From Spirochaetia bacterium (lineage in GTDB: Bacteria > Spirochaetota > Spirochaetia > SP-2023): a DNA stretch of 64,000 nt. The DNA is taken from NCBI GenBank assembly GCA_965263295.1, contig OZ253665.1, positions 544,001-608,000 on the forward strand, read 5' to 3'. How positions within the stretch are numbered: position 1 is the first letter of the stretch; the number at the start of each line of letters is the position of its first letter. Of the stretch, positions 906 to 38,460 are shown one piece after another. Made by a program: the position numbers and the translations under genes. The notes below the pieces were generated by a model, which had not been told where the DNA came from, did no database searches, and worked only from the letters and a program-made list of their open reading frames with translations.

Positions 906-1011
906 TACTTGAAATGAAATACAGGAATTAAAATACTTAAATTGATCAAGTAATTTGAATTTTCTCTGGACAGACGAATTGCCGCACGGGCAAGAGAGAA
1001 GAAGGAGAGAA

Positions 1012-3267
1012 ATGAACAAGACGGGGCGTTACTACGCCCATTCACGGGAAACCGCGGACTACACCACCTGGCAGTTGCTCGATGACCACCTGCAACGGGT
1101 GGGGGAAATGGCCGGCGCGTTCGGCGAAGTGTTCGGCTGTCGGGAACTTGCGAGCGTGCTCGGACGCTTACACGATCTGGGTAAATATTCGGCGGACTTT
1201 GATGATCGATTGCACGGCGGCAAGCGGGTGGATCACGCGACCGCCGGCGCCAAGGTCGCCACGGAAAAATGGGGGCAGGATCCGCATCAGCAGATACTGG
1301 CGAAAATGCTCGCTTTCGCGATCGCCGGCCATCACGCGGGACTTGCCAATGGTATCGACGACGGGGAAAATCGCACGACCCTGAAAGACCGCCTTGCTCT
1401 ACAATTTGAACGAGACATTCCGCGACTGGACGAGGTCTGGCGGCAGGAAATTGCCTTGCCGGACGCTCTGCCTTTTCCGGTGATGAAAAATCAGCAGGAC
1501 GCGCCAGGGTTTTCCGCCGCTTTTCTGATCAGAATGCTCTATTCCTGTCTCGTCGACGCCGATTATCTGGATACCCGGCATTTCTACCAAACGCGGGAAA
1601 GCGCCCCTCCTTCCCCTTCCCTGGAAACTTTGCAGCAAGCCTTTGACGACTACCTGCAACGACTGGGCGAAAAAGCCGCCGAAAACGCGGCACGACCCAT
1701 CGATCGCCTGCGCAATCGCATTCAGAACGAAGTAAAAAGCAAAAGCGATCGGGAGCCAGGCCTTTTTTCCCTTACCGTGCCAACAGGCGGCGGCAAAACG
1801 CTCACCTCCATGGCGTTCGCTCTGCGCCATGCGCGCCGTCACGGCATGCGCCGGATCATTTACGTGATTCCTTACACCAGCATCATCGAACAGAACGCGC
1901 AAGTGTTTCGCGAGGCGTTCGGCGCGCTCGGCGCCGACGCCGTGCTCGAGCATCACAGTGCCTTCGATGACCGCAAACTGCCAGACGAAGTCACGCGGGA
2001 CAAACTGCGCCACGCGGCGGAAAACTGGGACATGCCCGTCGTCGTCACCACCGCCGTGCAGTTTTTCGAGTCTTTGTTCGCCGATCGTTCGTCCAGATGC
2101 CGCAAGCTGCACAACATCGCCGCCAGTGTGGTCATTTTCGATGAAGCGCAGATGATCCCGCTTCCCCTTTTGCGCCCGATTATTGCCGCAATCAACGAAC
2201 TGGCCCTGAATTACCGCTGCTCGATTGTATTGTGCACGGCGACACAGCCGGCGATCAAAGAAACGGACGGCTTTTATCACGGCCTGAAAAATGTCCGCGA
2301 ACTCACGGATGCACCCAATCGCTTATTCGAACAGTTGCGAAGAACGACGGTTTGCGCTGTCGGCAAAAAAACCGACGCGGATCTGCACGCGCTGCTTGCC
2401 GAACACGAACAGATGCTTGTGATCCTCAACAACCGGCGCCACGTCCGAGCCTTGTATGACGACGCAAAGTCCCTGGATGGCGTCTATCCTCTTAGCACCC
2501 TGATGTGTGCCGCGCATCGGCGCAAGGTTCTCGATGAAGTCAAAACCCGCCTCGAACAGGGCAACCCCTGCCGCCTGATCGCGACGTCTTTGGTCGAATG
2601 CGGCGTGGATGTCTCTTTCCCTTTTCTGATGCGCGAGGAAACGGGACTGGATTCCATCGCGCAGGCCGCCGGTCGCTGCAACCGCGAAGGAGAATACGAG
2701 GCGGCACAGAGCGAGGTATGGGTATTCAGTTCGGGAGGCTGGCGAGCGCCACCGGCGCTCGACGCCCTGGCGGCAACGACACGGATGGTGATGCGCCATC
2801 ATGCGGAAATTCTTTCCCCGGAAGCGATGAGCGCTTATTTTCAGCGGGTTCAGCAACAGATGGGCGAAGAATTGGACAAGCATCAAATCTTGCAGAGCCA
2901 CCGGCGGGCGAAGACAACGCTCGACTTTCCGTTCCAGAATATCGCGCGCGACTTCCGCATGATCGACGACAGCTATATGGTCGCGTTGCTCATTCCCTAT
3001 GACGGCGATGCGGAAAGCCTTATCGAGAGGCTTCGTTTTGCCGAGACGATCGACGCGCGGCGGATGCGCGCGTTACAATCCTACCTGGTACAGCTCCCCC
3101 AATCCGCCCTTGACGCGCTCGATCTTGCCGGCAGAGTGGAGTTCATACAAAGAGAACGTTTCGGCGAGCAATTCCCCGTGCTGATCGGCCTCGATCTGTA
3201 TGACGTCGGTGCCGGGCTTTCCTGGGAGGACCCGAATTTTCTGGCAAACGAGAGTTTGCTTTGCTGA
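1012..3267 (+). CDS. cas3: Type I-C CRISPR-associated helicase/HD nuclease Cas3
   Basis: YYAHS and LHDLGK (HD domain), VPTGGGKT (Walker A), DEAQ, QAAGRCNR; start set at ATG 1012 after GAAGGAG. Confidence 0.95.
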   Translation: MNKTGRYYAHSRETADYTTWQLLDDHLQRVGEMAGAFGEVFGCRELASVLGRLHDLGKYSADFDDRLHGGKRVDHATAGAKVATEKWGQDPHQQILAKMLAFAIAGHHAGLANGIDDGENRTTLKDRLALQFERDIPRLDEVWRQEIALPDALPFPVMKNQQDAPGFSAAFLIRMLYSCLVDADYLDTRHFYQTRESAPPSPSLETLQQAFDDYLQRLGEKAAENAARPIDRLRNRIQNEVKSKSDREPGLFSLTVPTGGGKTLTSMAFALRHARRHGMRRIIYVIPYTSIIEQNAQVFREAFGALGADAVLEHHSAFDDRKLPDEVTRDKLRHAAENWDMPVVVTTAVQFFESLFADRSSRCRKLHNIAASVVIFDEAQMIPLPLLRPIIAAINELALNYRCSIVLCTATQPAIKETDGFYHGLKNVRELTDAPNRLFEQLRRTTVCAVGKKTDADLHALLAEHEQMLVILNNRRHVRALYDDAKSLDGVYPLSTLMCAAHRRKVLDEVKTRLEQGNPCRLIATSLVECGVDVSFPFLMREETGLDSIAQAAGRCNREGEYEAAQSEVWVFSSGGWRAPPALDALAATTRMVMRHHAEILSPEAMSAYFQRVQQQMGEELDKHQILQSHRRAKTTLDFPFQNIARDFRMIDDSYMVALLIPYDGDAESLIERLRFAETIDARRMRALQSYLVQLPQSALDALDLAGRVEFIQRERFGEQFPVLIGLDLYDVGAGLSWEDPNFLANESLLC

Positions 3268-3301
3268 GACAAAAAATATTGAATACTTGCCGTTTTGTTA
3301 A

Positions 3302-3331
3302 TTGACAGTAATGCAGACTATGTGATATAAT
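3302..3331 (+). promoter_or_regulatory. Consensus sigma70 promoter upstream of cas5
   Basis: TTGACA (3302-3307), 18 bp, TATAAT (3326-3331), preceded by extended -10 TG. Confidence 0.75.
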
Positions 3332-3392
3332 ATATGTTGTATCTGCTTGTTCCATTCTAAATGGCATCTTGCTTGATGCAAAGGAGAAAACA

Positions 3393-4076
3393 ATGTCTTA
3401 TGGCATTGCATTGCATGTCTGGGGAGATTCCGCCTGCTTTACCCGTCCGGAGATGAAGGTCGAACGGGTGAGCTACGATGTGATGACGCCTTCCGCGGCG
3501 CGCGGAATCGTCTCGGCGATCTATTGGAAGACGGAAATTGCCTGGTCGATTGATCGCATCCATGTTCTGAAGCCGATTCGTTTCGCCTCAATTCGCCGTA
3601 ACGAACTCGGTGGAAAGATTCCACAAAGCAAGGCAAGCGGCGCGATGCGCCGCAAATCAACTGAGGGCCTGCATATTCTTATTGAAGAAGATCGCCAGCA
3701 GCGCGCCGCGACCGTGCTGCGCGAAGTTGCCTATGTCATTGAGGCGCATTTTACCCTGACCGGCGCGCAAACGCCGGAAAATACCCCGGCCAAACACATC
3801 AGCATGTTCAATCGACGCGCGCAAAAAGGGCAGTGCTTCCAGCAGCCCTGTCTAGGTACGCGGGAATTTCCCGCCCATTTCGCCTGGCTTGATCCCGACA
3901 GAACGGAAAGTTTTCCCGCCACCGAACTGAGGGGAGACGAGGCAGATAAGGATCTCGGCTGGATGCTCCACGACATTGATTTCGCCCACGAGCACACGCC
4001 GTGTTTTTTCAGAGCGCAAATGAAGGGGGGCATCATCGCGGTGCCGCCGTTTCACGGCGCGGCGGTGAAATCGTGA
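3393..4076 (+). CDS. cas5: Type I-C Cas5 (Cas5c/Cas5d, crRNA processing)
   Basis: ACFTRPEMKVERVSYDVMTPSAARG and QPCLGTREF motifs; AAGGAG RBS before ATG 3393. Confidence 0.95.
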   Translation: MSYGIALHVWGDSACFTRPEMKVERVSYDVMTPSAARGIVSAIYWKTEIAWSIDRIHVLKPIRFASIRRNELGGKIPQSKASGAMRRKSTEGLHILIEEDRQQRAATVLREVAYVIEAHFTLTGAQTPENTPAKHISMFNRRAQKGQCFQQPCLGTREFPAHFAWLDPDRTESFPATELRGDEADKDLGWMLHDIDFAHEHTPCFFRAQMKGGIIAVPPFHGAAVKS

Positions 4077-5902
4077 TCTTGCAGGCGCTGAACAGTTATT
4101 ACGAACGCCTCGCAGAAGAGCGCGATGGAAGCGGCAACCCCAAAGTGCCGTCATACGGTTTCAGCAAAGAGCAGATCGCTTATATCCTGATTCTTTCTTC
4201 GGAGGGAGAAGCGCTCGATGCGATCGCCCACATGACCCGGGACAAAAAACCGCGCCCCAAACTCATGACCGTCCCAAAACCGGAAAAACGCGCGGGTAAG
4301 CCGTCAGACAAAAATATGAAACCCTCTTTCTTGTGGGATAAAACTTCCTACGCATTGGGCATCGAGTTGGAAAAAGACAAAGCGGCAGTGCGCTCCTGGA
4401 CGGCGACGGAAAAAACCTTCACCGCATTCCGTGATTACCATCTGCGCGTACTCGAAGGAACAGAAGACGCCGGACTGCGGGCCTTAAAGCTTTTCCTGCA
4501 ACGCTGGCAGCCGCAGGACTTTGCCGAATCGCGCCTGCCGGAGGCGATCGCCGGTCAAAATCTCGTCTTCCAACTTGATGGCGATCAGTGCTACCTGCAT
4601 CAGCGGCCGGCGGCCAAGATGCTTTGGCAAAAGCTTTTGCACAGCGATCGGGAAAAGAGAGTTCCGTGTCTCGTCAGTGGAGAAATGGCGCTTCCGGCTC
4701 GTCTGCACCCCGCAATCAAAGGCGTCTGGAACGTTCAATCTTCTGGTGGATCCATCGTCTCTTTCAATCAGGAGTCCTTTGGATCCTATGGAAAAGTGCA
4801 GGGAGACAACGCGCCGGTATCGCAAAAAGCTGCTTTTGCCTACACCACGGCGCTGAACTATCTGCTCAATCGTGCACATCGACAATGTGTGCAAATCGGC
4901 GACGCGAGCACGGTGTTTTGGGCGGTTTCCGATCAAGCAGGGCAGGCCGAGGCGGCGGAAATGTTGTGTGCAACGTTCATCAGCCCGCCCGATGACGCGA
5001 CGGAAAACCATAAATTGTCCGCCCTTCTCACCGACATCGCGAAAGGACGGGCGCTCGCGGAAATCCGCCCCAACCTGGATTCGAGCACCCGTTTTTATGT
5101 GCTCGGATTGGCGCCGAACGCCGCGCGAATTTCCATCCGTTTCTGGCTGCAAAGTACGCTCGGCGAACTGGCAACGCGTTTCGCCGAACATTACGACGAT
5201 TTATCGATTACCCCTTCGCCGTGGCGCAAGGTGCCGGCTATACAGGACTTACTGGAGGCTACAGCGGTTCAGAGCAAGAAAAAAAATATTTCTCCGCTGC
5301 TCGCCGGAGAATTGATGCGCGCGATCCTCGCCGGCACGCCGTACCCGATGAGCCTGCTTGCCCAGTTGCTGCTGAGAGTGCGTACATACGCATATAAGAA
5401 TAAGAAAAATAAAAAAAATAAAAAAGAGAGAGATTTGAATGGCTATCGCATTGCGATGATCAAGGCGATTCTCGCCAGGCGTTACCGCAAGAATTTAATA
5501 CAGGAGGAAGTGCCGATGGCATTGGATAAGGACAATCGGAATGGGGCTTATTTATTGGGTCGGCTGTTTGCCGTGCTCGAACGAATTCAGGGGCAGGCAT
5601 TGGGCGAGCTCAATGCCGGCATCAGCGAGCGTTATTACGGTTCGGCGTCTATGGCGCCGTTTTCCGTTTTCCCCCGCTTGCTGCGCGGTGCGCGGCATCA
5701 CTTGGGTAAACTGCGTAAGGACAGACCAGGAAGCGCAGTCTATCTTGATAAAGCGCTCGGAGAGGTGATCGGGCATCTGCCTGAAAGTTCTTTGCCCCGC
5801 CATCTCAGTATCGACGATCAGGGGCGCTTTGCGATCGGCTATTACCAGCAGAAACAACGTTATTTTGAAAAAAAGTCTGAAACAAGAGAGGAATCGGCAT
5901 GA
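4073..5902 (+). CDS. cas8c: Type I-C large subunit Cas8c/Csd1
   Basis: GTG start overlaps cas5 stop; ILQALNSYYERL, FLWDK, CLVSG, LAPNAARISIRF, AYLLGRLFAVLE. Confidence 0.93.
   Translation: MILQALNSYYERLAEERDGSGNPKVPSYGFSKEQIAYILILSSEGEALDAIAHMTRDKKPRPKLMTVPKPEKRAGKPSDKNMKPSFLWDKTSYALGIELEKDKAAVRSWTATEKTFTAFRDYHLRVLEGTEDAGLRALKLFLQRWQPQDFAESRLPEAIAGQNLVFQLDGDQCYLHQRPAAKMLWQKLLHSDREKRVPCLVSGEMALPARLHPAIKGVWNVQSSGGSIVSFNQESFGSYGKVQGDNAPVSQKAAFAYTTALNYLLNRAHRQCVQIGDASTVFWAVSDQAGQAEAAEMLCATFISPPDDATENHKLSALLTDIAKGRALAEIRPNLDSSTRFYVLGLAPNAARISIRFWLQSTLGELATRFAEHYDDLSITPSPWRKVPAIQDLLEATAVQSKKKNISPLLAGELMRAILAGTPYPMSLLAQLLLRVRTYAYKNKKNKKNKKERDLNGYRIAMIKAILARRYRKNLIQEEVPMALDKDNRNGAYLLGRLFAVLERIQGQALGELNAGISERYYGSASMAPFSVFPRLLRGARHHLGKLRKDRPGSAVYLDKALGEVIGHLPESSLPRHLSIDDQGRFAIGYYQQKQRYFEKKSETREESA
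5516..5902 (+). CDS. cas11: Cas11c small subunit, predicted internal in-frame translation product of cas8c
   Basis: AGGAGG at 5502-5507, then in-frame ATG 8 nt later (MALDKDNRNGAYLLGRLF...). Confidence 0.75.
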   Translation: MALDKDNRNGAYLLGRLFAVLERIQGQALGELNAGISERYYGSASMAPFSVFPRLLRGARHHLGKLRKDRPGSAVYLDKALGEVIGHLPESSLPRHLSIDDQGRFAIGYYQQKQRYFEKKSETREESA

Positions 5903-6780
5903 GTCTCGAAAATCGTTATGAATTTGTCTATCTGTTCGATGTCAAAAACGGCAACCCGAACGGCGATCCGGATGCCGGTAATATGCCGCGTCTCGACCCG
6001 GAATCCAGCAAGGGGCTTGTAAGCGATGTTTGTTTGAAGCGCAAGATCCGCAATTTCATCGAATTGACCGAAGAAAATAACCCCGGCTATGAAATTTACG
6101 TGAAAGAAAAGGCCGTGCTCAATTTACAGAACAAGCGCGCCTATGAGGCGCTCAAGATCACGCCGGAAAAGAAACATTTACCAAAGGATGAGCAACAGGC
6201 CCATGAGATCACCGCCTGGATGTGTAAGAACTTTTTCGATGTGCGTAGCTTCGGTGCGGTGATGAGTACAAAAGTGAACTGTGGGCAGGTACGCGGGCCG
6301 GTTCAATTCGCCTTTGCCCAGTCTCTCGATCCGATTGTGCCGCTTGAAATTTCGATCACCCGCATGGCAGTGACTGATCAAGGTGACAATGATCAGGATG
6401 AAGAAGAACGCAAAGACCGTACCATGGGACGCAAACATATCGTCCCCTACGCCTTGTATCGCGGACACGGCTATATTTCCGCGAAACTCGCGGAAAAAAC
6501 CGGGTTTTCCGCAGAGGATCTGGAAAAGTTCTGGCAGGCGCTCGAGCATATGTTTGAACACGATCATTCTGCCGCCAGAGGCGAAATGTCGGCACGCAAA
6601 CTGATTGTTTTCAAGCATCGCGATGCCCTCGGCAATCTGCCGGCGCACAGGCTCTTCGCGGCGGTGAACGTCGAACGGATCAGCGGTGAAGACAACACCC
6701 CGGCGACGGATTTCTCCGACTACCGTATCGGCATCGATAAAGACGGACTCGACGGCGTCGAGGTGTACGAACGATTTTGA
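5899..6780 (+). CDS. cas7: Type I-C backbone subunit Cas7c/Csd2
   Basis: NGNPNGDPDAGNMPR, DVCLKRKIRN, FFDVRSFGAV, TMGRKH. Confidence 0.95.
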   Translation: MSLENRYEFVYLFDVKNGNPNGDPDAGNMPRLDPESSKGLVSDVCLKRKIRNFIELTEENNPGYEIYVKEKAVLNLQNKRAYEALKITPEKKHLPKDEQQAHEITAWMCKNFFDVRSFGAVMSTKVNCGQVRGPVQFAFAQSLDPIVPLEISITRMAVTDQGDNDQDEEERKDRTMGRKHIVPYALYRGHGYISAKLAEKTGFSAEDLEKFWQALEHMFEHDHSAARGEMSARKLIVFKHRDALGNLPAHRLFAAVNVERISGEDNTPATDFSDYRIGIDKDGLDGVEVYERF

Positions 6781-7400
6781 TGCGGATCCCGCTTTCCGCT
6801 CTCCAACATTATGCTTTCTGCCCGCGTCAGTGCGCGCTGATCCATAACGAACAGATATGGGCGGAAAATGTTCTGACCGCCCGCGGCCGGGCGCTGCATG
6901 AAAGGGTGGACAGCGGCGAAGCGGAAACCCGCAAGGGGATTCGTTACGCCCGCGCGGTGCACGTCGCTTCGGAGAAATTGGGACTTTCCGGCATCGTCGA
7001 TCTCCTTGAAGTACATGGAAAAAGCGGGCAAATGAAACCGGTCGAATATAAAAACGGACGCAGCAAAGCAACGAATGTCGATCGGATTCAACTCTGCGCG
7101 CAGGCCTTGTGTCTCGAAGAAATGCACGGCGAACCGGTGGCGGAAGGCGCTTTGTGGTATGGATGCACGCGCCACCGCGAGGCTGTTATTCTGGATGAGC
7201 CTTTGCGCGCAGAGACTCTGAAAGTGATCGAGCGGACGCGCGCCTTGCTCACAAGCGGGAAAACGCCGCCGCCGATACTCGCCAAGCACTGCAAATCGTG
7301 CTCTTTGGTCGATAACTGTCAGCCGGCACTTTTCGCGAAAGACCGTTCGCCCGCCTACGTGCAAGCCTTGTTCGCCGACACAGTCGCTGAAAGGAACTGA
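6777..7400 (+). CDS. cas4: CRISPR-associated Cas4
   Basis: SALQHYAFCPRQ, PVEYK, QLCAQALCLEEM, C-terminal CxxCxxxxxC. Confidence 0.95.
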   Translation: MMRIPLSALQHYAFCPRQCALIHNEQIWAENVLTARGRALHERVDSGEAETRKGIRYARAVHVASEKLGLSGIVDLLEVHGKSGQMKPVEYKNGRSKATNVDRIQLCAQALCLEEMHGEPVAEGALWYGCTRHREAVILDEPLRAETLKVIERTRALLTSGKTPPPILAKHCKSCSLVDNCQPALFAKDRSPAYVQALFADTVAERN

Positions 7401-7476
7401 CACTTGCCGCGATCGCGTTACGTTGGAAGAATAATGCTCCTGAAAACGGCCGCTTTGCACAAATGCATGGAAAAAA

Positions 7477-8490
7477 ATGCGTAAACTGCAAAATACCTTG
7501 TTCATCACCCGCCAAGGCGCTTATCTGCACAAGGCCCGTGAAACGCTGGTGATCGACTGCGCCGGCGAAAAGCTGATGCAATTGCCGGTGCACGCGGTCG
7601 CCCATATTTTCTGTTTCGGCAATGTGCTGGTTTCGCCGTTTTTACTTGGCTTTTGCGGCGAGAATCGGGTATCGCTGGCGTTTTTTAGCGAATACGGCAA
7701 ATATCTCGGCCGCCTGCAAGGATGCAAGAGCGGTAACGTGCTGCTGAGAAGAGCGCAGTATCGCCTCTCTCAGGAAGCGCCGCTGCCGATCGCGCGCAAT
7801 CTCATTGCCGCGAAAATTCAGGCGTGCAAGCAGGTTTTGCAAAGACGCCTGCGTCATTATGGCGAACAAACAGAGGTGCGGCAGGCAGTGATCGCCTTGA
7901 ACAGCAGCCTGCAAAGGCTTGGAACGGCATTGAGCGTGGATTCCGTTCGTGGTATCGAAGGTGATGCCGCTGCCGTTTACTTCGGCGTATTTACACATTT
8001 GATTCGTGTTTCAAATGGACTAATCTTTGACGGGCGCAATCGTCGTCCGCCGCGAGATCCGGTCAATGCTGCGCTGTCGTTTTTCTACAGCGTCTTGGGG
8101 CATGAAATTGGCGGGGCACTGGAAAGTGTGGGACTCGATCCGCAGGTTGGCTTTCTTCATGCCGATCGTCCGGGCCGCGACAGCCTTGCTCAGGATCTGC
8201 TGGAAGAATTCCGTGCTTGGTGGGTCGATCGGCTGGTACTGAGATTGATCAACCGCGGGCAGATAAAAGAAAACGATTTTTTGGTTGAAGCGAGCGGCGC
8301 GGTTACAATGAAAGATGAAACGAGAAAAACCTTGTTGGCCGCCTATCAGATACGCAAACAGGAAAAGATTCGTCATCCCTATCTCGGCGAAGAAGTCGAA
8401 GTCGGTCTCCTTCCGATCGTTCAGGCAATGTTACTCGCCCGGCATTTACGCGGCGATCTGGCTGAATATCCTCCGTTTTTGATGAGATGA
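7477..8490 (+). CDS. cas1: Type I-C Cas1 integrase
   Basis: MRKLQNTLF, RGIEG, RNRRPPRDPVNAALSF, LDPQVGFLH, DLLEEFR. Confidence 0.96.
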   Translation: MRKLQNTLFITRQGAYLHKARETLVIDCAGEKLMQLPVHAVAHIFCFGNVLVSPFLLGFCGENRVSLAFFSEYGKYLGRLQGCKSGNVLLRRAQYRLSQEAPLPIARNLIAAKIQACKQVLQRRLRHYGEQTEVRQAVIALNSSLQRLGTALSVDSVRGIEGDAAAVYFGVFTHLIRVSNGLIFDGRNRRPPRDPVNAALSFFYSVLGHEIGGALESVGLDPQVGFLHADRPGRDSLAQDLLEEFRAWWVDRLVLRLINRGQIKENDFLVEASGAVTMKDETRKTLLAAYQIRKQEKIRHPYLGEEVEVGLLPIVQAMLLARHLRGDLAEYPPFLMR

Positions 8491-8496
8491 TAAGCT

Positions 8497-8790
8497 ATGA
8501 TGGTGTTGATCGCTTATGATGTTTCTTTCGAGGATCGCCAGGGAGCAAAACGCTTGCGCCGTATCGCTAAACACTGCCAGGATTACGGACAGCGCGTGCA
8601 ATACTCGCTTTTTGAATGTGAAATCTCGCCCGCCCAGTGGACAAAGTTGAAAAATAAATTGTTGAGAGAATACCAACCGGAAATCGACAGTCTGCGTTTT
8701 TACCTGTTGGGAAAAAACTGGCAGAGAAAAATCGAGCATTGGGGGGCCAAGCCTTCTTTGGATTTGTTTCGCGATCCACTCGTCCTATGA
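8497..8790 (+). CDS. cas2: Cas2
   Basis: VLIAYDV, GQRVQYSLFEC, DSLRFY. Confidence 0.95.
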   Translation: MMVLIAYDVSFEDRQGAKRLRRIAKHCQDYGQRVQYSLFECEISPAQWTKLKNKLLREYQPEIDSLRFYLLGKNWQRKIEHWGAKPSLDLFRDPLVL

Positions 8791-8970: not shown

Positions 8971-11900
8971 GTCGCGCCCTTTACGGGCGCGTGAATTGAA
9001 ACTTGTCTTTTAATAAATCGTCATCGTCTTCATCATGTCGCGCCCTTTACGGGCGCGTGAATTGAAACTTCGCAGCGCTCCCGCCAGTATTGTTGCGTGT
9101 AGGTCGCGCCCTTTACGGGCGCGTGAATTGAAACAGGGGCTTGGGAATCCGCCGAGCCATTGCCTGAGTCGCGCCCTTTACGGGCGCGTGAATTGAAACA
9201 ATGATGTTCCGTATTTCGAAGATAAGGTTTTCGTCGCGCCCTTTACGGGCGCGTGAATTGAAACATCGACAAGAGCAATCATATGAGGGCCTCGGTGGGT
9301 CGCGCCCTTTACGGGCGCGTGAATTGAAACGCTCTAAGATGCCATGCATATCCAGGGCCGCCAGGTCGCGCCCTTTACGGGCGCGTGAATTGAAACCCCG
9401 GCAAAGCGAATAGGAGAACTGTCATGACGGGTCGCGCCCTTTACGGGCGCGTGAATTGAAACGCCGGAGATATCAAGGACTCACTGCAAAGTATTGGTCG
9501 CGCCCTTTACGGGCGCGTGAATTGAAACGCCGGAGATATCAAGGACTCACTGCAAAGTATTGGTCGCGCCCTTTACGGGCGCGTGAATTGAAACCGTCTC
9601 CGCCGTTCAGGGGCCGATTGATGGCGCCGTCGCGCCCTTTACGGGCGCGTGAATTGAAACTCACGATTGATTACTAAAATATCATGCTTAGATTGTCGCG
9701 CCCTTTACGGGCGCGTGAATTGAAACGGTATAGTCGGCCTTGGTCCCTAGAGTTATACTTGTCGCGCCCTTTACGGGCGCGTGAATTGAAACATTTGCCG
9801 TCGCATGTCTGGCACGGCAGCGTCATGTCGCGCCCTTTACGGGCGCGTGAATTGAAACGTAGGCTTTGTGCGTATATATATAAGGGGGATGTCGCGCCCT
9901 TTACGGGCGCGTGAATTGAAACCATGCGATTAAAGGCCGCAATGTATTGCTCTTTCGTCGCGCCCTTTACGGGCGCGTGAATTGAAACCACCTCTGAATA
10001 ATCGGGCAGCTGCAGTGCGCTCGTCGCGCCCTTTACGGGCGCGTGAATTGAAACGTAACTACAGTCTGGGTCAAGCCAGAAACTTATGGTCGCGCCCTTT
10101 ACGGGCGCGTGAATTGAAACAATAACCGATACAACATTTTCGCAAAAAGCTTCTTGTCGCGCCCTTTACGGGCGCGTGAATTGAAACACTAATATACATA
10201 ACTTCTGGCAAACTTATATAGGTCGCGCCCTTTACGGGCGCGTGAATTGAAACAAATCTACTGAATCACGCCGCAGCTTTGGCGGATGTCGCGCCCTTTA
10301 CGGGCGCGTGAATTGAAACTGCTGGAAATACCTTACCATGAACAAAAGTTTGTCGTCGCGCCCTTTACGGGCGCGTGAATTGAAACTGCGTAACTTATTG
10401 ACATTTTTACCCCCTTTCAGGTCGCGCCCTTTACGGGCGCGTGAATTGAAACAACCTTGAGGACTTTGGTAAATTAAATGGATATAGTCGCGCCCTTTAC
10501 GGGCGCGTGAATTGAAACCATTTTGTGAGTTTCGCCCGTCTCAAAATCAAAAGTCGCGCCCTTTACGGGCGCGTGAATTGAAACAATAACCGATACAACA
10601 TTTTCGCAAAAAGCTTCTTGTCGCGCCCTTTACGGGCGCGTGAATTGAAACAAAACCACTTTTAAAAGCGTTTTTAAAGACATCGGTCGCGCCCTTTACG
10701 GGCGCGTGAATTGAAACGTACTGGTAGGCCGTGCCGATATCCGTTGCGATGTCGCGCCCTTTACGGGCGCGTGAATTGAAACTTGAGTTCGCCTAGCGAT
10801 ATCGTGATCGCATTCTCGTCGCGCCCTTTACGGGCGCGTGAATTGAAACCACGCATAGAGTGTAATCTTGGATAGCAGTACGGTCGCGCCCTTTACGGGC
10901 GCGTGAATTGAAACAATCTCTTGGCAATTGCTGGCCCGACAAGATAACGTCGCGCCCTTTACGGGCGCGTGAATTGAAACTGCCGCAAGCTGGAGCCTGC
11001 GGAGGAAAGCGGCGTCGCGCCCTTTACGGGCGCGTGAATTGAAACATTCCGGCCATCGCAAGGAATTCCTGCGCCTTGGGTCGCGCCCTTTACGGGCGCG
11101 TGAATTGAAACGCCATATTGGCCGTCTTGGCCATCACATCGGCCACGTCGCGCCCTTTACGGGCGCGTGAATTGAAACATTCCGGCCATCGCAAGGAATT
11201 CCTGCGCCTTGGGTCGCGCCCTTTACGGGCGCGTGAATTGAAACGCCATATTGGCCGTCTTGGCCATCACATCGGCCACGTCGCGCCCTTTACGGGCGCG
11301 TGAATTGAAACCCACTCGGCTTGAAGGTGCTCTCACCTTCTGCCAGTCGCGCCCTTTACGGGCGCGTGAATTGAAACAGCTGGCCTCGGCGGCGGCCAGC
11401 TCTGCTTGTGACGTCGCGCCCTTTACGGGCGCGTGAATTGAAACAGCTGCTCCTTGGACGTGCTCGCCAGTTGATACGTCGCGCCCTTTACGGGCGCGTG
11501 AATTGAAACTGCCGCTCGGCACTGTAGCGGCTCTCCAGCTCGAGTCGCGCCCTTTACGGGCGCGTGAATTGAAACACGTGAACGTCCCTGAAAGCGATTT
11601 AACCGGCATGTCGCGCCCTTTACGGGCGCGTGAATTGAAACCCTGCTGACAGTCACCCAGCGTTGCGGCAATACAAGTCGCGCCCTTTACGGGCGCGTGA
11701 ATTGAAACTTGAGTAGCTGCGCAAGCTCGTTCATGCGCCAGGTCGCGCCCTTTACGGGCGCGTGAATTGAAACGCCGTTAAGCTGTACCTGCTGCTCCAG
11801 CAGTTTCGTCGCGCCCTTTACGGGCGCGTGAATTGAAACGAGCTGGAAGACCTGGATAGACAGGAAGCATAGGGTCGCGCCCTTTACGGGCGCGTGAATT

Positions 11901-13083
11901 GAAACTATACACAAGAAGCATTTATGGCCGTTATGGGTAGTCGCGCCCTTTACGGGCGCGTGAATTGAAACTGGAAAAAGGCCTTAATATTGATAATATT
12001 AAGGGGGTCGCGCCCTTTACGGGCGCGTGAATTGAAACGCCTCGCTTGCGGTGGCCTTGATGCTCAGGTCTGGTCGCGCCCTTTACGGGCGCGTGAATTG
12101 AAACTTGGGGTTGTTGCGCGCGACCACGCGCAGCGCACGTCGCGCCCTTTACGGGCGCGTGAATTGAAACGTACTCAAACTTGGTGCGTAAATCCATTAC
12201 TCGCGTCGCGCCCTTTACGGGCGCGTGAATTGAAACGCGCTCACAGCCGCATCCAGCATTGCCTGGCACTGGTCGCGCCCTTTACGGGCGCGTGAATTGA
12301 AACTGTCGGGGTTCTTGCCTTTCAGCTCGGCGCGTACGTCGCGCCCTTTACGGGCGCGTGAATTGAAACTGAAACAAAGAGAGACCATGTGCCTTTCTCA
12401 TGAGTCGCGCCCTTTACGGGCGCGTGAATTGAAACACATTGTGCAAGGTTTTGCCTGCAAAATCCCCGAGTCGCGCCCTTTACGGGCGCGTGAATTGAAA
12501 CGACAAGTATATAGACATAAAAACCGATGCGGGAAAGTCGCGCCCTTTACGGGCGCGTGAATTGAAACAAGGGTAAGGGTGTGCCTGTCTAGCAATTCGC
12601 TTCGTCGCGCCCTTTACGGGCGCGTGAATTGAAACAAGGGTAAGGGTGTGCCTGTCTAGCAATTCGCTTCGTCGCGCCCTTTACGGGCGCGTGAATTGAA
12701 ACTTCTATTGAAAGATTTATTCATTGATGCGAAGATGTCGCGCCCTTTACGGGCGCGTGAATTGAAACTATAGGGTATACACCATCTGGAATAATCAATC
12801 TGGTCGCGCCCTTTACGGGCGCGTGAATTGAAACTAGGAACTGGCTCGGCGTCTCGCGTTTGAGGCGCGTCGCGCCCTTTACGGGCGCGTGAATTGAAAC
12901 TTCTATTGAAAGATTTATTCATTGATGCGAAGATGTCGCGCCCTTTACGGGCGCGTGAATTGAAACACTTAGTTCACCAGAATTGTTCCCTGTCCCCGTG
13001 GTCGCGCCCTTTACGGGCGCGTGAATTGAAACGGCCTGGCGCAAAATCCCTTTGAGGGCGATGTGCGTCGCGCCCTTTACGGG
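8971..13083 (+). CRISPR. Type I-C CRISPR array: 62 intact repeats GTCGCGCCCTTTACGGGCGCGTGAATTGAAAC, 62 spacers of 32-35 bp, and the 5' half of a 63rd repeat (13067-13083)
   Basis: Invariant 32-bp repeat with hairpin CGCGCCC/GGGCGCG and ATTGAAAC 3' end; repeats counted by hand. Confidence 0.98.
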
Positions 13084-13831
13084 TGTAACTTTCCACGAAG
13101 AATGAAAAAAATTTGCATGAAGAATGAAACGCCAATCTGAACCCGATTTTTGAGCTTACATGTAAAGTTGAATCGGATAATTCGCCGTCAACATCTCAAC
13201 CCTGATCTTGGTTCTGAAATCCGCCTTCTGCCCGCCCAACGGCTGGCGCTGCGCCTGTTATCGCAGCCCGCTAACCACGACAGGGGAACCACGAAAAGGG
13301 AACCACGAAAAGTACGAAAGGTTGCGAAAGGTCACGAAATTTAGGCAGGGGAGCTTTGGGCACCAGGGAAAAGCAGAAAAGGGGCCGGATGGACGACGGG
13401 TACCACGAAGGGCACGAAAAGTAGCGAAAAGGCACGAAATTTAGACGGGGGAGCCGCGGGGAAAACGATGGGGGGCTGCGGGGGGCGTCCAGGCAGCAGG
13501 CGCGGTGTTTTAGAATTTTTCGTGTTGTTCGTACTTTTTTAGTGTTTTTCGTGGTTACTCGGCCAGGGACTGTTAGCGAGTAACCACGAAAGTACACGAA
13601 AGGTTACGAAATCTAGGCAGGGGAAAGCGGAAACCGCACCCGGAAAATCAGTAAAAACGGCTGCAAATTTCTGCAAGTTTTTTACAAATTTCTCCAAGAA
13701 AACAGCAAAAACCTGCAATTTTTTTCAAGCTTTTAAACGCCCTGCAGCCACCCTTTGAAAGCCCTAAATAAAAGGCATCCTGCAACTTTTCTAACTTAAT
13801 TCCTGCTTTTTCATTCTCCATGCCTCACACA
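13084..13831. mobile_element. 748-bp non-autonomous element with TGT...ACA ends and 5-bp TSD (ACGGG), inserted in the terminal CRISPR repeat
   Basis: ACGGG at 13079-13083 and 13832-13836; CAYGAAGAATGAAA at 13094 and 13116, inverted variant TTTCATTCTCCATG at 13809-13822; no transposase ORF. Confidence 0.8.
13273..13630. repeat. Modular CACGAAA-type palindromic repeat cluster, copy 1 (inside the mini-element)
   Basis: Repeated ACCACGAAA..CGAAA..CACGAAA units and their complement; perfect 15-bp inverted repeat 13547-13561/13577-13591. Confidence 0.85.
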
Positions 13832-13851
13832 ACGGGTGCGTGAATTGAAAC
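13832..13851 (+). CRISPR. Displaced 3' half of the terminal CRISPR repeat
   Basis: ACGGG-TGCGTGAATTGAAAC matches repeat positions 13-32 with one C>T change. Confidence 0.9.
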
Positions 13852-13954
13852 ACGTTACCAGCATAGTGGCTTGATGAGGCTCTCTTTGCGTAAAGAAATC
13901 GCCTGCTTTTGCGATAATCTTATCCCGTATTTCATCGTCGATAGGCTTCCGCAT
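13852..13954 (-). pseudogene. 5' fragment of a probable TetR-family regulator, cut off at the CRISPR trailer
   Basis: AAAGGA RBS, then MRKPIDDEIRDKIIAKAGDFFTQREPHQATMLVT, resembling TetR helix 1; the frame runs into the repeat. Confidence 0.5.
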
Positions 13955-14129
13955 TTTTCCTTTACATTATTGTTTGTTTATGATAATCGTACTTGACTAT
14001 ATTGTAATTATATAAGATATTATATTATATCTTTATTTTTAGACAGAGTTTTTTAATATCTCGCCTGCATGGGATAAGGCTGCAGAACTGATTAGAGAAA
14101 ACATCTAGTCTCATTCATAGGAGCAATGT

Positions 14130-14540
14130 ATGATTACTGGTCTTTATGTCGCATTGTTATCATTTCTGTTAATTGCGTTGTCGATCAACGTCATTAAGGG
14201 TAGACTTCAAAAAAAAGTGGCGCTTGGTGATGACAATAATTACGATCTTCAGAAGCGCATTAGAGCACATTCGAATTTCACAGAATATACGCCGATTTTT
14301 CTAATCTTGCTGGGAGTGCTGGAATATCTTGACTTACCCTATTATGGCTTGCATATACTCGGCTTATTATTTTTAGGTGCTCGATTAACACATGCTTACG
14401 GCCTGACAATCGCGGAACGCATTGAAGGAGAGAAATTACTCAACAGTCAGTATCGCGCGTGTGGGATGGCTGGTACGTTCATGGTCATTGGACTTAGTGC
14501 CTTGCTTGTTCTAATACTGCTAATTATTAAACTGGTATAG
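14130..14540 (+). CDS. MAPEG family membrane protein (YecN-like)
   Basis: AGGAG RBS; IRAHSNFTEYTP and RLTHAYG motifs; hydrophobic helices. Confidence 0.85.
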   Translation: MITGLYVALLSFLLIALSINVIKGRLQKKVALGDDNNYDLQKRIRAHSNFTEYTPIFLILLGVLEYLDLPYYGLHILGLLFLGARLTHAYGLTIAERIEGEKLLNSQYRACGMAGTFMVIGLSALLVLILLIIKLV

Positions 14541-14584: not shown

Positions 14585-15408
14585 CTAGGCTCAGGACTCA
14601 TTAGCTATTAGCTTCAAGAGAGCAAAGTGAAATATCTCTAAAAACGGAGCCTATTTATGAGCAATCTATTTTGGTTGAACGATGAGCAGATCTCGCATCT
14701 TAAACCCTATTTCCCAAAGTCTCGCGGTCGTCTCAGGGTTGATGACAAACGTCTCAGTATTATCTTTATTATCCGCAATGGTTCGCGCTGCTGTGATGCA
14801 CCGCCTGAATACGGCCCCTATAAAACACTTTACAACCGTTTTGTGCGCTGGTCACAAAACGGTGTTTTCAAGAATATCTTCAGAGAGCTGTTCACATCAG
14901 GCGCTGCACAGACGGGCATGCGGATGATTGATGCCTCCCATCTCAAGGTATACCGCACGGCATTGAACCTCAAAAAGGGCGGCGAGCCAAGCTTGATCGG
15001 GCGTATCATTCAATATCTTTGGAGCTATGAATAGCAAATTGCATGTTCTGAGCGATGGTGCAGGGCGCCGTTCTGGCTGCATCTGAGCGAAGGGCAGAAA
15101 AGCGATTTTAAAGGTGCGGATGTTTTGCTTTCTGAGTTGCCGGCGGCGCAAGTGCTGATTGCGGATCGGGCTTACGATAGTTTGAGAGTAAGAAAAATGC
15201 TTGGAGATCAGAATACTGGGAGTTGTATTCCCTGTCGCAGGAACCGTAAGGAGCCAATAGGATATTGTAAAACGAGTTATAAAAAGCGGCATAAAGTTGA
15301 GAATATTTTTGCTAAATTAAAAGACTAACGGCGTATTGCGATTCGATATGATCGTTGCGCGCACACTTTTAAATCGACAATTTACATCGTGACAATCGTT
15401 GAGCCTAG
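14585..15408 (+). mobile_element. Decayed IS5-family element (IS427-like, two-ORF transposase) flanked by CTAG
   Basis: MSNLFWLNDEQ...YGPYKTLYNRF; slippery AAAAAGGG near 14972; ADRAYDS; YKKRHKVENIFAKLKD*RRIAIRYDR with in-frame stop; ends CTAG-GCTCAGG and TGAGC-CTAG. Confidence 0.85.
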
Positions 15409-38120: not shown

Positions 38121-38460
38121 GCCCCCCCGTCTAGATTTCGTGAACTTTCGCCACCTTTCGTGCCCTTTCGTGGTCCCCGGGCCAAGTAACCACGAAAAAC
38201 ACTAAAAAAAATACGAACAACACGAAAAATTCTAAAATACCGCCCCTGCTGCCTGAACGCCTCTAGCAGCTCCCGTCATCCATCCAGCCCCTATTTTAAC
38301 TTTTCCCGGTCACCCAAAGCTCCCCATGTGCCACCCGCGGCTCCCCAGCCTAACTTTCGTGACTTTTCGCCAACTTTCGTGCAATTCGTGGTTCCTTTCC
38401 AGAGTCTCTGGCCAAGTAACCACGAAAAACACTAAAAAAATACGAACAACACGAAAAAGA
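38121..38460. repeat. Modular CACGAAA-type palindromic repeat cluster, copy 2
   Basis: About 49-bp direct repeat at 38180-38229 and 38410-38458, each preceded by TTTCGTG runs; reverse complement of blocks in 13273-13630. Confidence 0.88.

What the first reader, a model, noticed from the sequence alone, without database searches (positions are those of the whole stretch)
13067..13851. Non-coding Mu/Tn7-like mini-element has split the terminal CRISPR repeat
Seen: the last repeat stops after GTCGCGCCCTTTACGGG (13083) and resumes as ACGGG-TGCGTGAATTGAAAC at 13832, so ACGGG is duplicated around a 748-bp insert that begins TGT and ends ACA. The left end has two copies of CAYGAAGAATGAAA 22 bp apart; the right end has one inverted variant about 10 bp from the terminus. 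There is no transposase ORF. Known: TG(T)...(A)CA ends, a 5-bp TSD and arrays of ~22-bp transposase sites characterise phage Mu and Tn7-type DDE elements; IS21 and IS481 ends are similar. Inference: this is a collapsed transposable prophage/transposon or a trans-mobilised MITE that landed in the repeat hairpin. If other copies also sit in repeats, it would be a CRISPR-array-targeting element. The last spacer's crRNA also loses its normal 3' hairpin.
Basis: partly seen in the sequence, partly recalled or inferred. Interest (0 to 1): 0.82.

Follow-up and report, generated by a model that had tools for sequence, protein, structure and literature searches.

The report
Dead Mu-type transposon in last CRISPR repeat
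A 748-base, gene-less leftover of a jumping (Mu-type) phage element sits inside the last repeat of a spirochaete's CRISPR array; it is a real insertion scar but an ordinary, now immobile one that does not aim at CRISPR.

Summary
A type I-C array has 62 identical repeats (8971-13032). Its 63rd repeat is split at 13083/13084 by a 748-bp insert (13084-13831) that begins TGTAAC, ends CACA and is flanked by a duplicated ACGGG. Removing the insert and one ACGGG restores a 32-nt repeat with one C>T change.

The insert is non-coding and composite:
- a left end with two CAYGAAGAATGAAA sites;
- a 50-nt piece of a phage Mu gp30 (F)-like gene;
- about 345 bp of a host-specific dispersed repeat;
- a right-end module of about 210 bp.

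That right end has six more copies in this genome, each with a different outer flank. None lies in a CRISPR repeat, and none has a partner left end. Some of these copies, and copies in a related species, follow Mu-type head and baseplate genes. Left and right ends recur in two of three congeners, and their terminal 14-mer co-varies between species. The genome has no rve-type transposase.

Best reading: a dead, internally deleted derivative of a Mu-type transposable phage lineage, inserted by 5-bp staggered transposition. The CRISPR-targeting idea is not supported. The last crRNA keeps a weakened hairpin. Elements inside CRISPR repeats are already known. Interest is low.

The parts
955..8790 (+). 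Type I-C cas operon (cas3, cas5c, cas8c, cas7, cas4, cas1, cas2). It sets the array's direction.
   Evidence: NCBIfam matches over cut-off for Cas5c, Cas8c/Csd1, Cas7/Csd2, Cas4, Cas1c and Cas2
8971..13032 (+). CRISPR array: 62 identical 32-nt repeats. Counting the last spacer at 13033-13066 there are 62 spacers, 56 of them unique.
   Evidence: Script count; pattern count of 62 forward matches
13067..13083 (+). Left 17 nt of the split 63rd (trailer-end) repeat. Its last 5 nt, ACGGG (13079-13083), are the left copy of the target duplication.
   Evidence: Sequence
13084..13831 (+). The 748-bp insert: a two-ended, non-coding, defective transposable element (TGTAAC...CACA).
   Evidence: Of the 7 right ends in the genome, only this one has a matching left end plus duplication.
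13084..13129 (+). Left terminus TGTAAC followed by two direct 14-nt sites (13094-13107 and 13116-13129), presumed transposase-binding sites.
   Evidence: The same layout, TGTAAC-N4-CACGAA..ATG.AA-N8-CAYG.A.AATGAAA, is found in G003 and G002 with other flanks.
13156..13215 (-). 3' remnant of a leftward ORF (...TKIRVEMLTANYPIQLYM*). It is conserved next to the left end of G003 (...TKIEVLTANYLILF*) and at G000:C1:20.1 kb.
   Evidence: Six-frame translations; DNA matches
13227..13276 (+). 50-nt fragment of a phage Mu gp30 (F)-like minor head protein gene; it reads ...CPPNGWRCACYRSPL...
   Evidence: 49 of 50 nt identical to G000:C1:1914706-1914755, which overlaps the Pfam Phage_Mu_F match at 1914724-1914951; translation
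13277..13621 (.). About 1.5 units of a host-specific dispersed palindromic repeat: runs of CACGAAA spaced 10-11 bp, a G+C-rich core, then runs of TTTCGTG.
   Evidence: 144 places in the genome match the whole insert and 111 match one unit. None of the 5 other genomes of the order has it.
13622..13831 (+). Right-end module (about 210 bp). It holds four CTGCAA words (13661, 13671, 13713, 13780), an inverted 14-nt site at 13809-13822, and the terminus ...CACA.
   Evidence: Alignment of 7 right ends. CTGCAA: 4 observed against 0.11 expected. Right ends of congeners share this layout.
13832..13851 (+). Right part of the split repeat: the second ACGGG copy (13832-13836), then TGCGTGAATTGAAAC with T in place of the consensus C at 13837.
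   Evidence: Sequence

Best explanation
The insert is a dead, internally deleted derivative of a Mu-type transposable phage lineage that was once active in this spirochaete genus. A DDE transposase cut the target strands 5 bp apart inside the trailer-end CRISPR repeat and joined the element's TG...CA ends to it, which gave the ACGGG duplication. This step is inferred from the scar.

What remains is two ends, a 50-nt scrap of the gp30-like head gene, and host repeat DNA. No transposase gene survives in the element or anywhere in the genome, so it cannot move now.

Whether a full-length prophage inserted and then collapsed in place, or an already defective element was moved by a helper, is open. 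I put this near even. The junction 'host repeat | right-end module' shared with two other copies leans towards an element that was already defective.

The effect on immunity is minimal. All 62 other repeat-spacer units are intact. Only the oldest crRNA has an altered 3' end.
For: 1. Scar. A 5-bp duplication and TGT...ACA termini, and excision restores the 32-nt repeat.

2. Real element boundaries. The right end recurs 6 more times in the genome (5 conserved over about 200 bp, 1 divergent), plus one partial copy. Each has a different outer flank immediately after ...CACA.

3. Conserved left ends. TGTAAC... left ends with other flanks occur in G003 and G002.

4. Co-variation. The terminal 14-mer sits 9-10 nt from the tip at both ends and changes together between species. 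G000 has CAYGRAGAATGAAA at left and right. G003 has CAYGRAAAATGGAA at left and right.

5. Phage link.
- Insert positions 144-193 are a piece of the type-1 F gene.
- That gene runs into the right end in G000 (the 1913 kb copy) and in both G003 copies. Those two copies share about 5 kb and also carry GP46 and Baseplate_J genes, plus a Mu Gp48-like gene that scores below Pfam's cut-off.
- A tape-measure gene lies beside the 723 kb copy.
- The F protein's best full-length phage matches are Mu, D108, SfMu and other transposable phages: 96% coverage, 24% identity, E 1e-16.

6. Immobility. No rve domain is found in the genome, and the control search rang in 6 of 14 genomes.

7. Definition. Transposable phages are defined by TG-CA ends and a 5- or 6-bp duplication (passages read in PMC8705779).
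Against: - No transposase is tied to these ends anywhere.
- The MuA-like prophages found in G001, G002 and G003 (phrog_310 and phrog_296) show no BLAST similarity to these ends within the 20-kb windows I fetched.
- G001 has such prophages but neither the ends nor the F-like gene.
- No complete two-ended phage-sized copy was found in 6 genomes of the order, or in 3 viral, 2 metagenome and 1 genome-collection scans.
- The gp30-like gene lies next to the right end, which is not Mu's gene order.
- Some phage genes beside right ends read away from the end.
- The 5-bp duplication rests on this single two-ended copy.
- The terminal sequences are unrelated to Mu's own. That comparison is recalled, not tested.
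Confidence: 0.7

Rival explanations
1. A non-autonomous derivative of a non-phage transposon with multi-site ends (Tn7-like, Tn5053/Tn402-like, IS21- or IS481-like). Under this reading the phage genes beside sibling right ends are neighbours or targets, not part of the element.
For: - TGT...ACA tips, a 5-bp duplication and several subterminal repeats fit Tn7- and Tn402-type ends as well as Mu's (family features recalled).
- Right-end tips read TGTGGG.../TGTGTG... on the complement.
- The congeners' Mu-like prophages do not carry these ends.
Against: - No rve gene exists in this genome.
- The only rve hits in the three congeners are ORFs of 585-613 aa. Of these, the G002 one matches the phage transposase family phrog_310 and is followed by a MuB-like gene. 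The G001 and G003 ones are its homologues at 34-54% identity.
- The order F gene then right end is kept in two species whose F proteins are only 65% identical. Independent insertions next to the same gene are an unlikely cause.
- The insert itself holds a piece of that F gene.
Confidence: 0.15
2. An element that aims at CRISPR repeats, or at hairpin-forming repeats in general, as a counter-defence.
For: - This copy sits in the 3' arm of the repeat hairpin.
- Two G000 right ends and both kinds of G003 end abut species-specific tandem repeat families.
- 3 of 6 independent G000 right flanks contain CGGG.
Against: - None of the 6 other right ends in this genome is in a CRISPR repeat. The repeat exists only in this array.
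- The hit is in the last of 63 repeats, where it disables almost nothing.
- The other flanks are ordinary intergenic or gene-end DNA, for example miaA and a tRNA neighbourhood.
- Only 4 of 13 flanks fit Mu's recalled NYSRN target rule, against about 1.6 expected.
Confidence: 0.04
3. Not a transposition: a misassembly, or a recombination product between dispersed repeats, that happens to mimic a duplication.
For: - The interior is made of a repeat present at more than 100 places, which invites assembly errors.
- The left junction is covered only by short unitigs in one run.
Against: - The right junction is bridged exactly in 3 runs.
- The left-junction unitigs are exact.
- The flanks rebuild a whole repeat, 31 of 32 nt to the consensus.
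- The left end is a conserved element terminus in two other species.
Confidence: 0.03

Closest known systems
Bacteriophage Mu, mini-Mu-type defective derivatives and Mu-like transposable prophages (for example those catalogued in Leptospira, PMC8705779)
   Same: - TG...CA termini and a 5-bp target duplication.
- Repeated sites near both tips, unequal between left and right.
- A gene reading outward next to the left end.
- Sibling ends next to gp30-, gp46- and gp47-like genes, a weaker gp48-like match, and a tape-measure gene.
   Different: - 748 bp with no genes.
- No A or B genes anywhere in the genome.
- The gp30 homologue lies beside the right end rather than mid-genome.
- The end sequences are unrelated to those of known phages.
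- The interior was replaced by host repeat DNA.
- No intact relative was found.
Insertion sequences inside CRISPR repeats: the IS21-family element in a repeat of Xanthomonas citri pv. citri (PMC6889575, passages read), which itself cites IS6110 in the M. tuberculosis direct-repeat locus; and the statement that prophages and ISs integrate into arrays (PMC10359306, introduction read)
   Same: A transposable element lands within a repeat of an otherwise intact array and becomes a strain marker.
   Different: Here the element is a gene-less phage-type remnant, and it sits in the terminal repeat.
Tn7-like elements, including CRISPR-associated transposons
   Same: TGT...ACA tips, a 5-bp duplication, and several binding-site-like repeats in asymmetric ends.
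   Different: - No tnsA/B/C-type genes in this genome or, by the rve search, in its congeners.
- No attachment-site or guide-RNA logic.
- Sibling ends are tied to phage structural genes.
MITEs (miniature inverted-repeat transposable elements)
   Same: Small, non-coding, flanked by a target duplication, and dependent on a helper.
   Different: - Only one two-ended copy.
- The ends are not true inverted repeats beyond a 14-mer.
- The composite interior carries a gene scrap.

Membership tests
Mu-type transposable phage (or its defective derivative) | 5'-TG...CA-3' termini | tested here: met
   TGTAAC...CACA. The same tips occur in 6 other right ends and in the ends of congeners.
Mu-type transposable phage (or its defective derivative) | 5-bp (Mu) or 6-bp (B3) target duplication | tested here: met
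   ACGGG on both sides, in this single two-ended copy only.
Mu-type transposable phage (or its defective derivative) | DDE (rve) transposase plus ATPase activator within the element or supplied by a helper | tested here: not met
   No rve domain in the genome, with a working control. The congeners' MuA-like prophages show no similarity to these ends.
Mu-type transposable phage (or its defective derivative) | Several transposase-binding repeats in each end | tested here: inconclusive
   Two 14-mers at the left and one at the right, co-varying between species, plus 4 CTGCAA words at the right. Binding was not tested.
Mu-type transposable phage (or its defective derivative) | Phage structural genes of the Mu type between the ends; length about 36-39 kb | tested here: inconclusive
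   The insert holds only a 50-nt gp30-like scrap. Sibling right ends adjoin gp30-, gp46- and gp47-like genes, a gp48-like match below Pfam's cut-off, and tape-measure genes. No full-length copy was found.
Tn7-like transposon | tnsA/tnsB/tnsC genes (TnsB carries an rve domain) | tested here: not met
   No rve in G000. The rve hits in G001-G003 are ORFs of 585-613 aa. The G002 one is of the phage transposase family. The others are its homologues.
Tn7-like transposon | Insertion at a fixed attachment site or a guide-RNA-defined site | tested here: not met
   Seven right ends with seven different flanks.
MITE | Many near-identical short copies with terminal inverted repeats and duplications | tested here: not met
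   Only 1 of the 7 right ends has a left end and a duplication. The left end is unique in the genome.
IS21 / IS481 derivative | istA/istB genes or an IS481-type rve transposase between the same ends | tested here: not met
   No rve in the genome. Ends compared with the fetched rve loci of congeners gave no match.

The most novel reading that the evidence does not exclude
The ends belong to a transposable-phage lineage that prefers structured, G+C-rich repeat DNA as its target. Candidate targets are the CRISPR repeat hairpin, this host's CACGAAA palindromic family and G003's 67-bp tandem family. On this reading the host's dispersed CACGAAA arrays, whose core resembles the terminal CACGAA sites, are decoy or fossil binding-site arrays for its transposase. 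The phage and the genome's repeat landscape would then have shaped each other.
Probability: 0.07. Interest if true: 0.6.

Novelty: new member of a known kind. Interest (0 to 1): 0.22.

Why it matters
It matters little for CRISPR biology. The hit is in the trailer repeat, and 62 of 63 units are untouched.

Its use is as a dated scar. It shows that a Mu-type transposable element was active in a poorly known Spirochaetia lineage with only six species genomes in its order. It gives the exact tips and candidate binding sites of that element. It is also a strain marker for the array.

If an intact helper phage were found, these ends would be a starting point for a transposon tool in spirochaetes of this group.

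Tried and rejected
- Pfam DDE_2 and Mu-transpos_C searches of the genome gave nothing, but their controls also rang nowhere. They are uninformative.
- Pattern scans for both ends gave 0 stretches in viral contigs and 0 in metagenome contigs.
- An F-protein profile scan of viral contigs matched 92 stretches by pattern, none confirmed.
- The genome-collection scan gave 20 stretches. Four lie in the two congeneric Spirochaetia records already known. The other 16 are in unrelated taxa; I did not examine them and take them for chance.
- I tried to find the ends of the congeners' Mu-like prophages and compare them. Homology between the two G003 copies stops inside a terminase-like gene. No inverted termini turned up for G002. 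No BLAST link to our ends was found.
- I looked for an empty site. The trailer and the repeat are absent from all 5 other genomes of the order.
- I searched for left ends of the 6 other right ends by their 5-nt flank plus TG within 60 kb. Only chance strings appeared.
- G000:C1:16-36 kb, which holds two left-end-like fragments, is not a prophage.
- The promoter and terminator scan of 12900-14200 was at chance level. Rfam gave nothing in the insert.
- Spacers against the genome gave no off-array match beyond 18 nt.
- Mu's recalled NYSRN target rule fits 4 of 13 flanks, against about 1.6 expected. I do not use it as evidence.
- Public-run contigs: in X2 and X3 the left-junction bin has no cover, and X4 covers only repeat-family parts. 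Neither says anything about the junction.

Full report
**What is there**

The window is G000:C1:544001-608000 of a 2.41-Mb single-contig genome with 49.4% G+C. A FlaA gene and the record titles of its congeners place it in Spirochaetia. Its order holds only 6 species genomes.

A complete type I-C operon (cas3, cas5c, cas8c, cas7, cas4, cas1, cas2; 955-8790, + strand) is followed by 62 identical 32-nt repeats at 8971-13032. The 63rd repeat is split:
- GTCGCGCCCTTTACGGG ends at 13083.
- A 748-bp insert runs 13084-13831 (TGTAAC...CACACA).
- ACGGG-TGCGTGAATTGAAAC follows at 13832-13851.

ACGGG is present twice. Removing the insert and one copy restores the repeat with one change, C>T at 13837.

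The motif CAYGRAGAATGAAA lies at 13094 and 13116 (direct, 22 bp apart) and inverted at 13809-13822. That is 3 matches in the window, with none in 100 shuffles. ORFs in the insert are 64, 78 and 108 aa. The two I scanned hit no family. Rfam finds nothing there.

**Assembly**

Contigs of three public runs bridge the right junction exactly: records 7, 15 and 22. These runs come from two samples of one study, which may be the source.

The left junction is covered only by two exact short unitigs in one run (13006-13096 and 13067-13256). Both fall short of the tool's 31-letter rule. I see no sign of misassembly, but the left junction deserves long reads.

**Is it a mobile element?**

The last ~200 bp of the insert recur at 723144, 991699, 1882785, 1913147 and 2083200 at 92-94% identity. 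The 991 kb copy carries an internal deletion. A divergent copy lies at 1811299 and a partial one at 1882441. Similarity stops sharply after ...CACA, and each outer flank is different. These are true element boundaries.

The left end is unique in this genome. Two of three congeners carry the same layout with other flanks:
- G003: ...ACACC|TGTAACCGCGCACGAAAAATGGAAAAAATTTGCACGCAAAATGAAA
- G002: ...TTACT|TGTAACCGAGCACGAAAGATGAAATAAATTTGCATGAAAAATGAAA

This fixes the left tip at TGTAAC, and so fixes the duplication at 5 bp.

Right ends of congeners end ...CATGCCCCGTGACA (two G003 copies with different flanks) and ...CATGCCCCCTTACA (G002).

The terminal 14-mer starts 10-11 nt from the tip at both ends and changes in step between species. 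In G000 it is GAATGAAA at left and right. In G003 it is AAATGGAA at left and right. That is what a shared, co-evolving transposase site would show.

The right-end module also carries four CTGCAA words where 0.11 are expected. Similar CTGCAA-T-rich repeats are visible in the congeners' right ends.

**What the insert is made of**

1. Positions 1-143: the left-end region. It includes the 3' remnant of a leftward ORF whose C-terminal peptide is conserved beside the G003 left end.
2. Positions 144-193: 49 of 50 nt identical to G000:1914706-1914755. That stretch overlaps a Pfam Phage_Mu_F match.
3. About 345 bp of a dispersed palindromic repeat family.
4. The ~210-bp right-end module.

So this is a patchwork left by deletions, not a designed miniature element.

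**Link to a transposable phage**

In the 1913 kb copy the same F gene, followed by three small ORFs, reads into the right end.

In G003 two copies share about 5 kb inward from the right end. They hold an F gene 65% identical in protein to the G000 one. They also hold GP46 and Baseplate_J genes and a Mu Gp48-like gene. The Gp48 match is below Pfam's cut-off, at 25.8 against 37.4 bits.

A tape-measure gene lies beside the 723 kb end.

Against 50,697 phage records the F protein matches 386. The fullest matches are Mu, D108, SfMu and other Mu-like phages, at 96% coverage, 24% identity and E 1e-16.

TG-CA tips with a 5- or 6-bp duplication are the accepted scar of transposable phages (passages read in PMC8705779).

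**What argues against a simple story**

- The genome has no rve-type transposase, and the control search worked. All seven ends are therefore fossils.
- Only our copy has both ends and a duplication.
- MuA-like genes exist in G001, G002 and G003. In G002 the gene is followed by a MuB-like gene, a protease, a major head gene, a sheath gene and baseplate genes.
- Those prophage loci share nothing with our ends in the windows I fetched.
- G001 has such prophages yet lacks both the ends and the F gene.
- No intact two-ended phage-sized element turned up in the order's 6 genomes or in any collection scan.
- The F gene next to the right end is not Mu's gene order.

The phage family call therefore rests on the scar, the co-varying ends and the neighbouring genes. 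It does not rest on a transposase.

**Timing**

In three copies (ours, 2083 kb and 991 kb) the right-end module is joined to a host repeat unit at the same base...TAGGCAGGGGA|AAGCGGAAACCGCACCC. In three others it follows phage ORFs.

The host repeat is specific to this species, absent from all 5 other genomes of the order. The joint therefore arose in this lineage and was then copied.

That favours an already defective element moved by a helper. The alternative is later gene conversion, rather than simple decay in place. I cannot decide between them.

**CRISPR-related claims**

None of the 6 other right ends lies in a CRISPR repeat. The repeat occurs only in this array, apart from one orphan right half at G000:925697. 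The targeting idea is not supported.

No relative has this repeat or this trailer, so no empty site could be compared.

The intact repeat folds into a 7-bp hairpin at -14.6 kcal/mol. The left junction still folds at -10.2 kcal/mol with two G-U pairs. The hairpin is weakened, not lost. The 3' flank, where Cas5c-type enzymes cut (recalled), is foreign sequence.

Insertions of ISs into CRISPR repeats are already in print:
- An IS21-family element sits in a repeat of Xanthomonas citri. That paper also cites IS6110 in the M. tuberculosis direct-repeat locus (PMC6889575, passages read).
- PMC10359306 states in its introduction that prophages and ISs integrate into arrays.
- PMC7708916 I saw only as a search listing.
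- Two earlier notes of this scan describe small elements inside CRISPR repeats of other genomes; I did not check them.

**Verdict**

This is a real insertion scar of a defective Mu-type transposable element in the trailer repeat. It is immobile and nearly harmless. It is a new member of a known kind, and interest is low.

Noticed in passing
window 13277-13621 and 38124-38458; G000:C1:1,900,000-1,913,100 (L069, L032): A species-specific dispersed repeat family. Units are about 200 bp: four CACGAAA words spaced 10-11 bp, a G+C-rich core, then three or four inverted TTTCGTG words. They are often in tandem and lie between genes.
- 111 places match one unit. I count about 62 cores in 35 clusters, including roughly 13 kb of near-continuous array next to the 1913 kb right end.
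- It is absent from the 5 other genomes of the order.
- Its CACGAA core resembles the element's terminal sites.
   Followed up: partly
window 13033-13066 (last spacer) against L068:8658-8674 (G001): The oldest spacer matches 17 of 17 nt (23 of 34 overall, in frame) the start of the gene that follows the MuA-like transposase gene in a G001 prophage. This is a possible old protospacer from a Mu-like phage. E is 9e-4 per query, so it is weak after 62 queries.
   Followed up: partly
window 9460-9595, 10119-10188/10583-10652, 11046-11278, 12570-12703, 12704-12736/12902-12935: Six spacers occur twice in the array (56 unique of 62). Several are duplicated blocks of one or two repeat-spacer units.
   Followed up: no
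window 14657-15031 (+): An N-terminal fragment of an IS5-family transposase lies 800 bp downstream of the array. About 20 related fragments are scattered in the genome, one beside the left-end-like fragment at G000:C1:20.1-21.1 kb.
   Followed up: no
G000:C1:925,640-925,711 (outside the window): An orphan stretch that resembles the array's leader, followed by one degenerate repeat (...GTCGCGCTCATGGGCGCGTGAATTGAAAC). Perhaps the stump of a second array.
   Followed up: no
L080:17303-19190, L064:898-2370 and L064:4886-19049 (G002): Small and large terminase genes and a second-type F gene end at a right-end-like tip (...TTTCATGCCCACA). This lies 2.5 kb upstream of the repressor of a complete-looking Mu-like prophage. 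Among the ORFs I scanned, that prophage shows no terminase or F gene between its B-like gene and its protease. It may be a rearranged or tandem prophage.
   Followed up: partly
L102:200-330, L103:14300-14430 and L039 (G003): G003 has its own tandem repeat family of about 67 bp. Units of it abut both a right end and a left end of the element family. In G000, two right ends abut the CACGAAA family.
   Followed up: no
L102:9050-15027 (G003 contig C2): A Calvin-cycle gene cluster on an 81.5-kb contig of a Spirochaetia genome: phosphoribulokinase, fructose bisphosphatase, a CbbX-like AAA protein, and RuBisCO large and small subunits. This is either unusual metabolism or a binning error.
   Followed up: no
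L033:8763-13091 and L035:7055-9046 (G000): Paralogous genes of 552-672 aa, one with a weak PKD match. They are 87-96% identical in DNA, framed by the CACGAAA repeats, and lie just inside two right ends.
   Followed up: no
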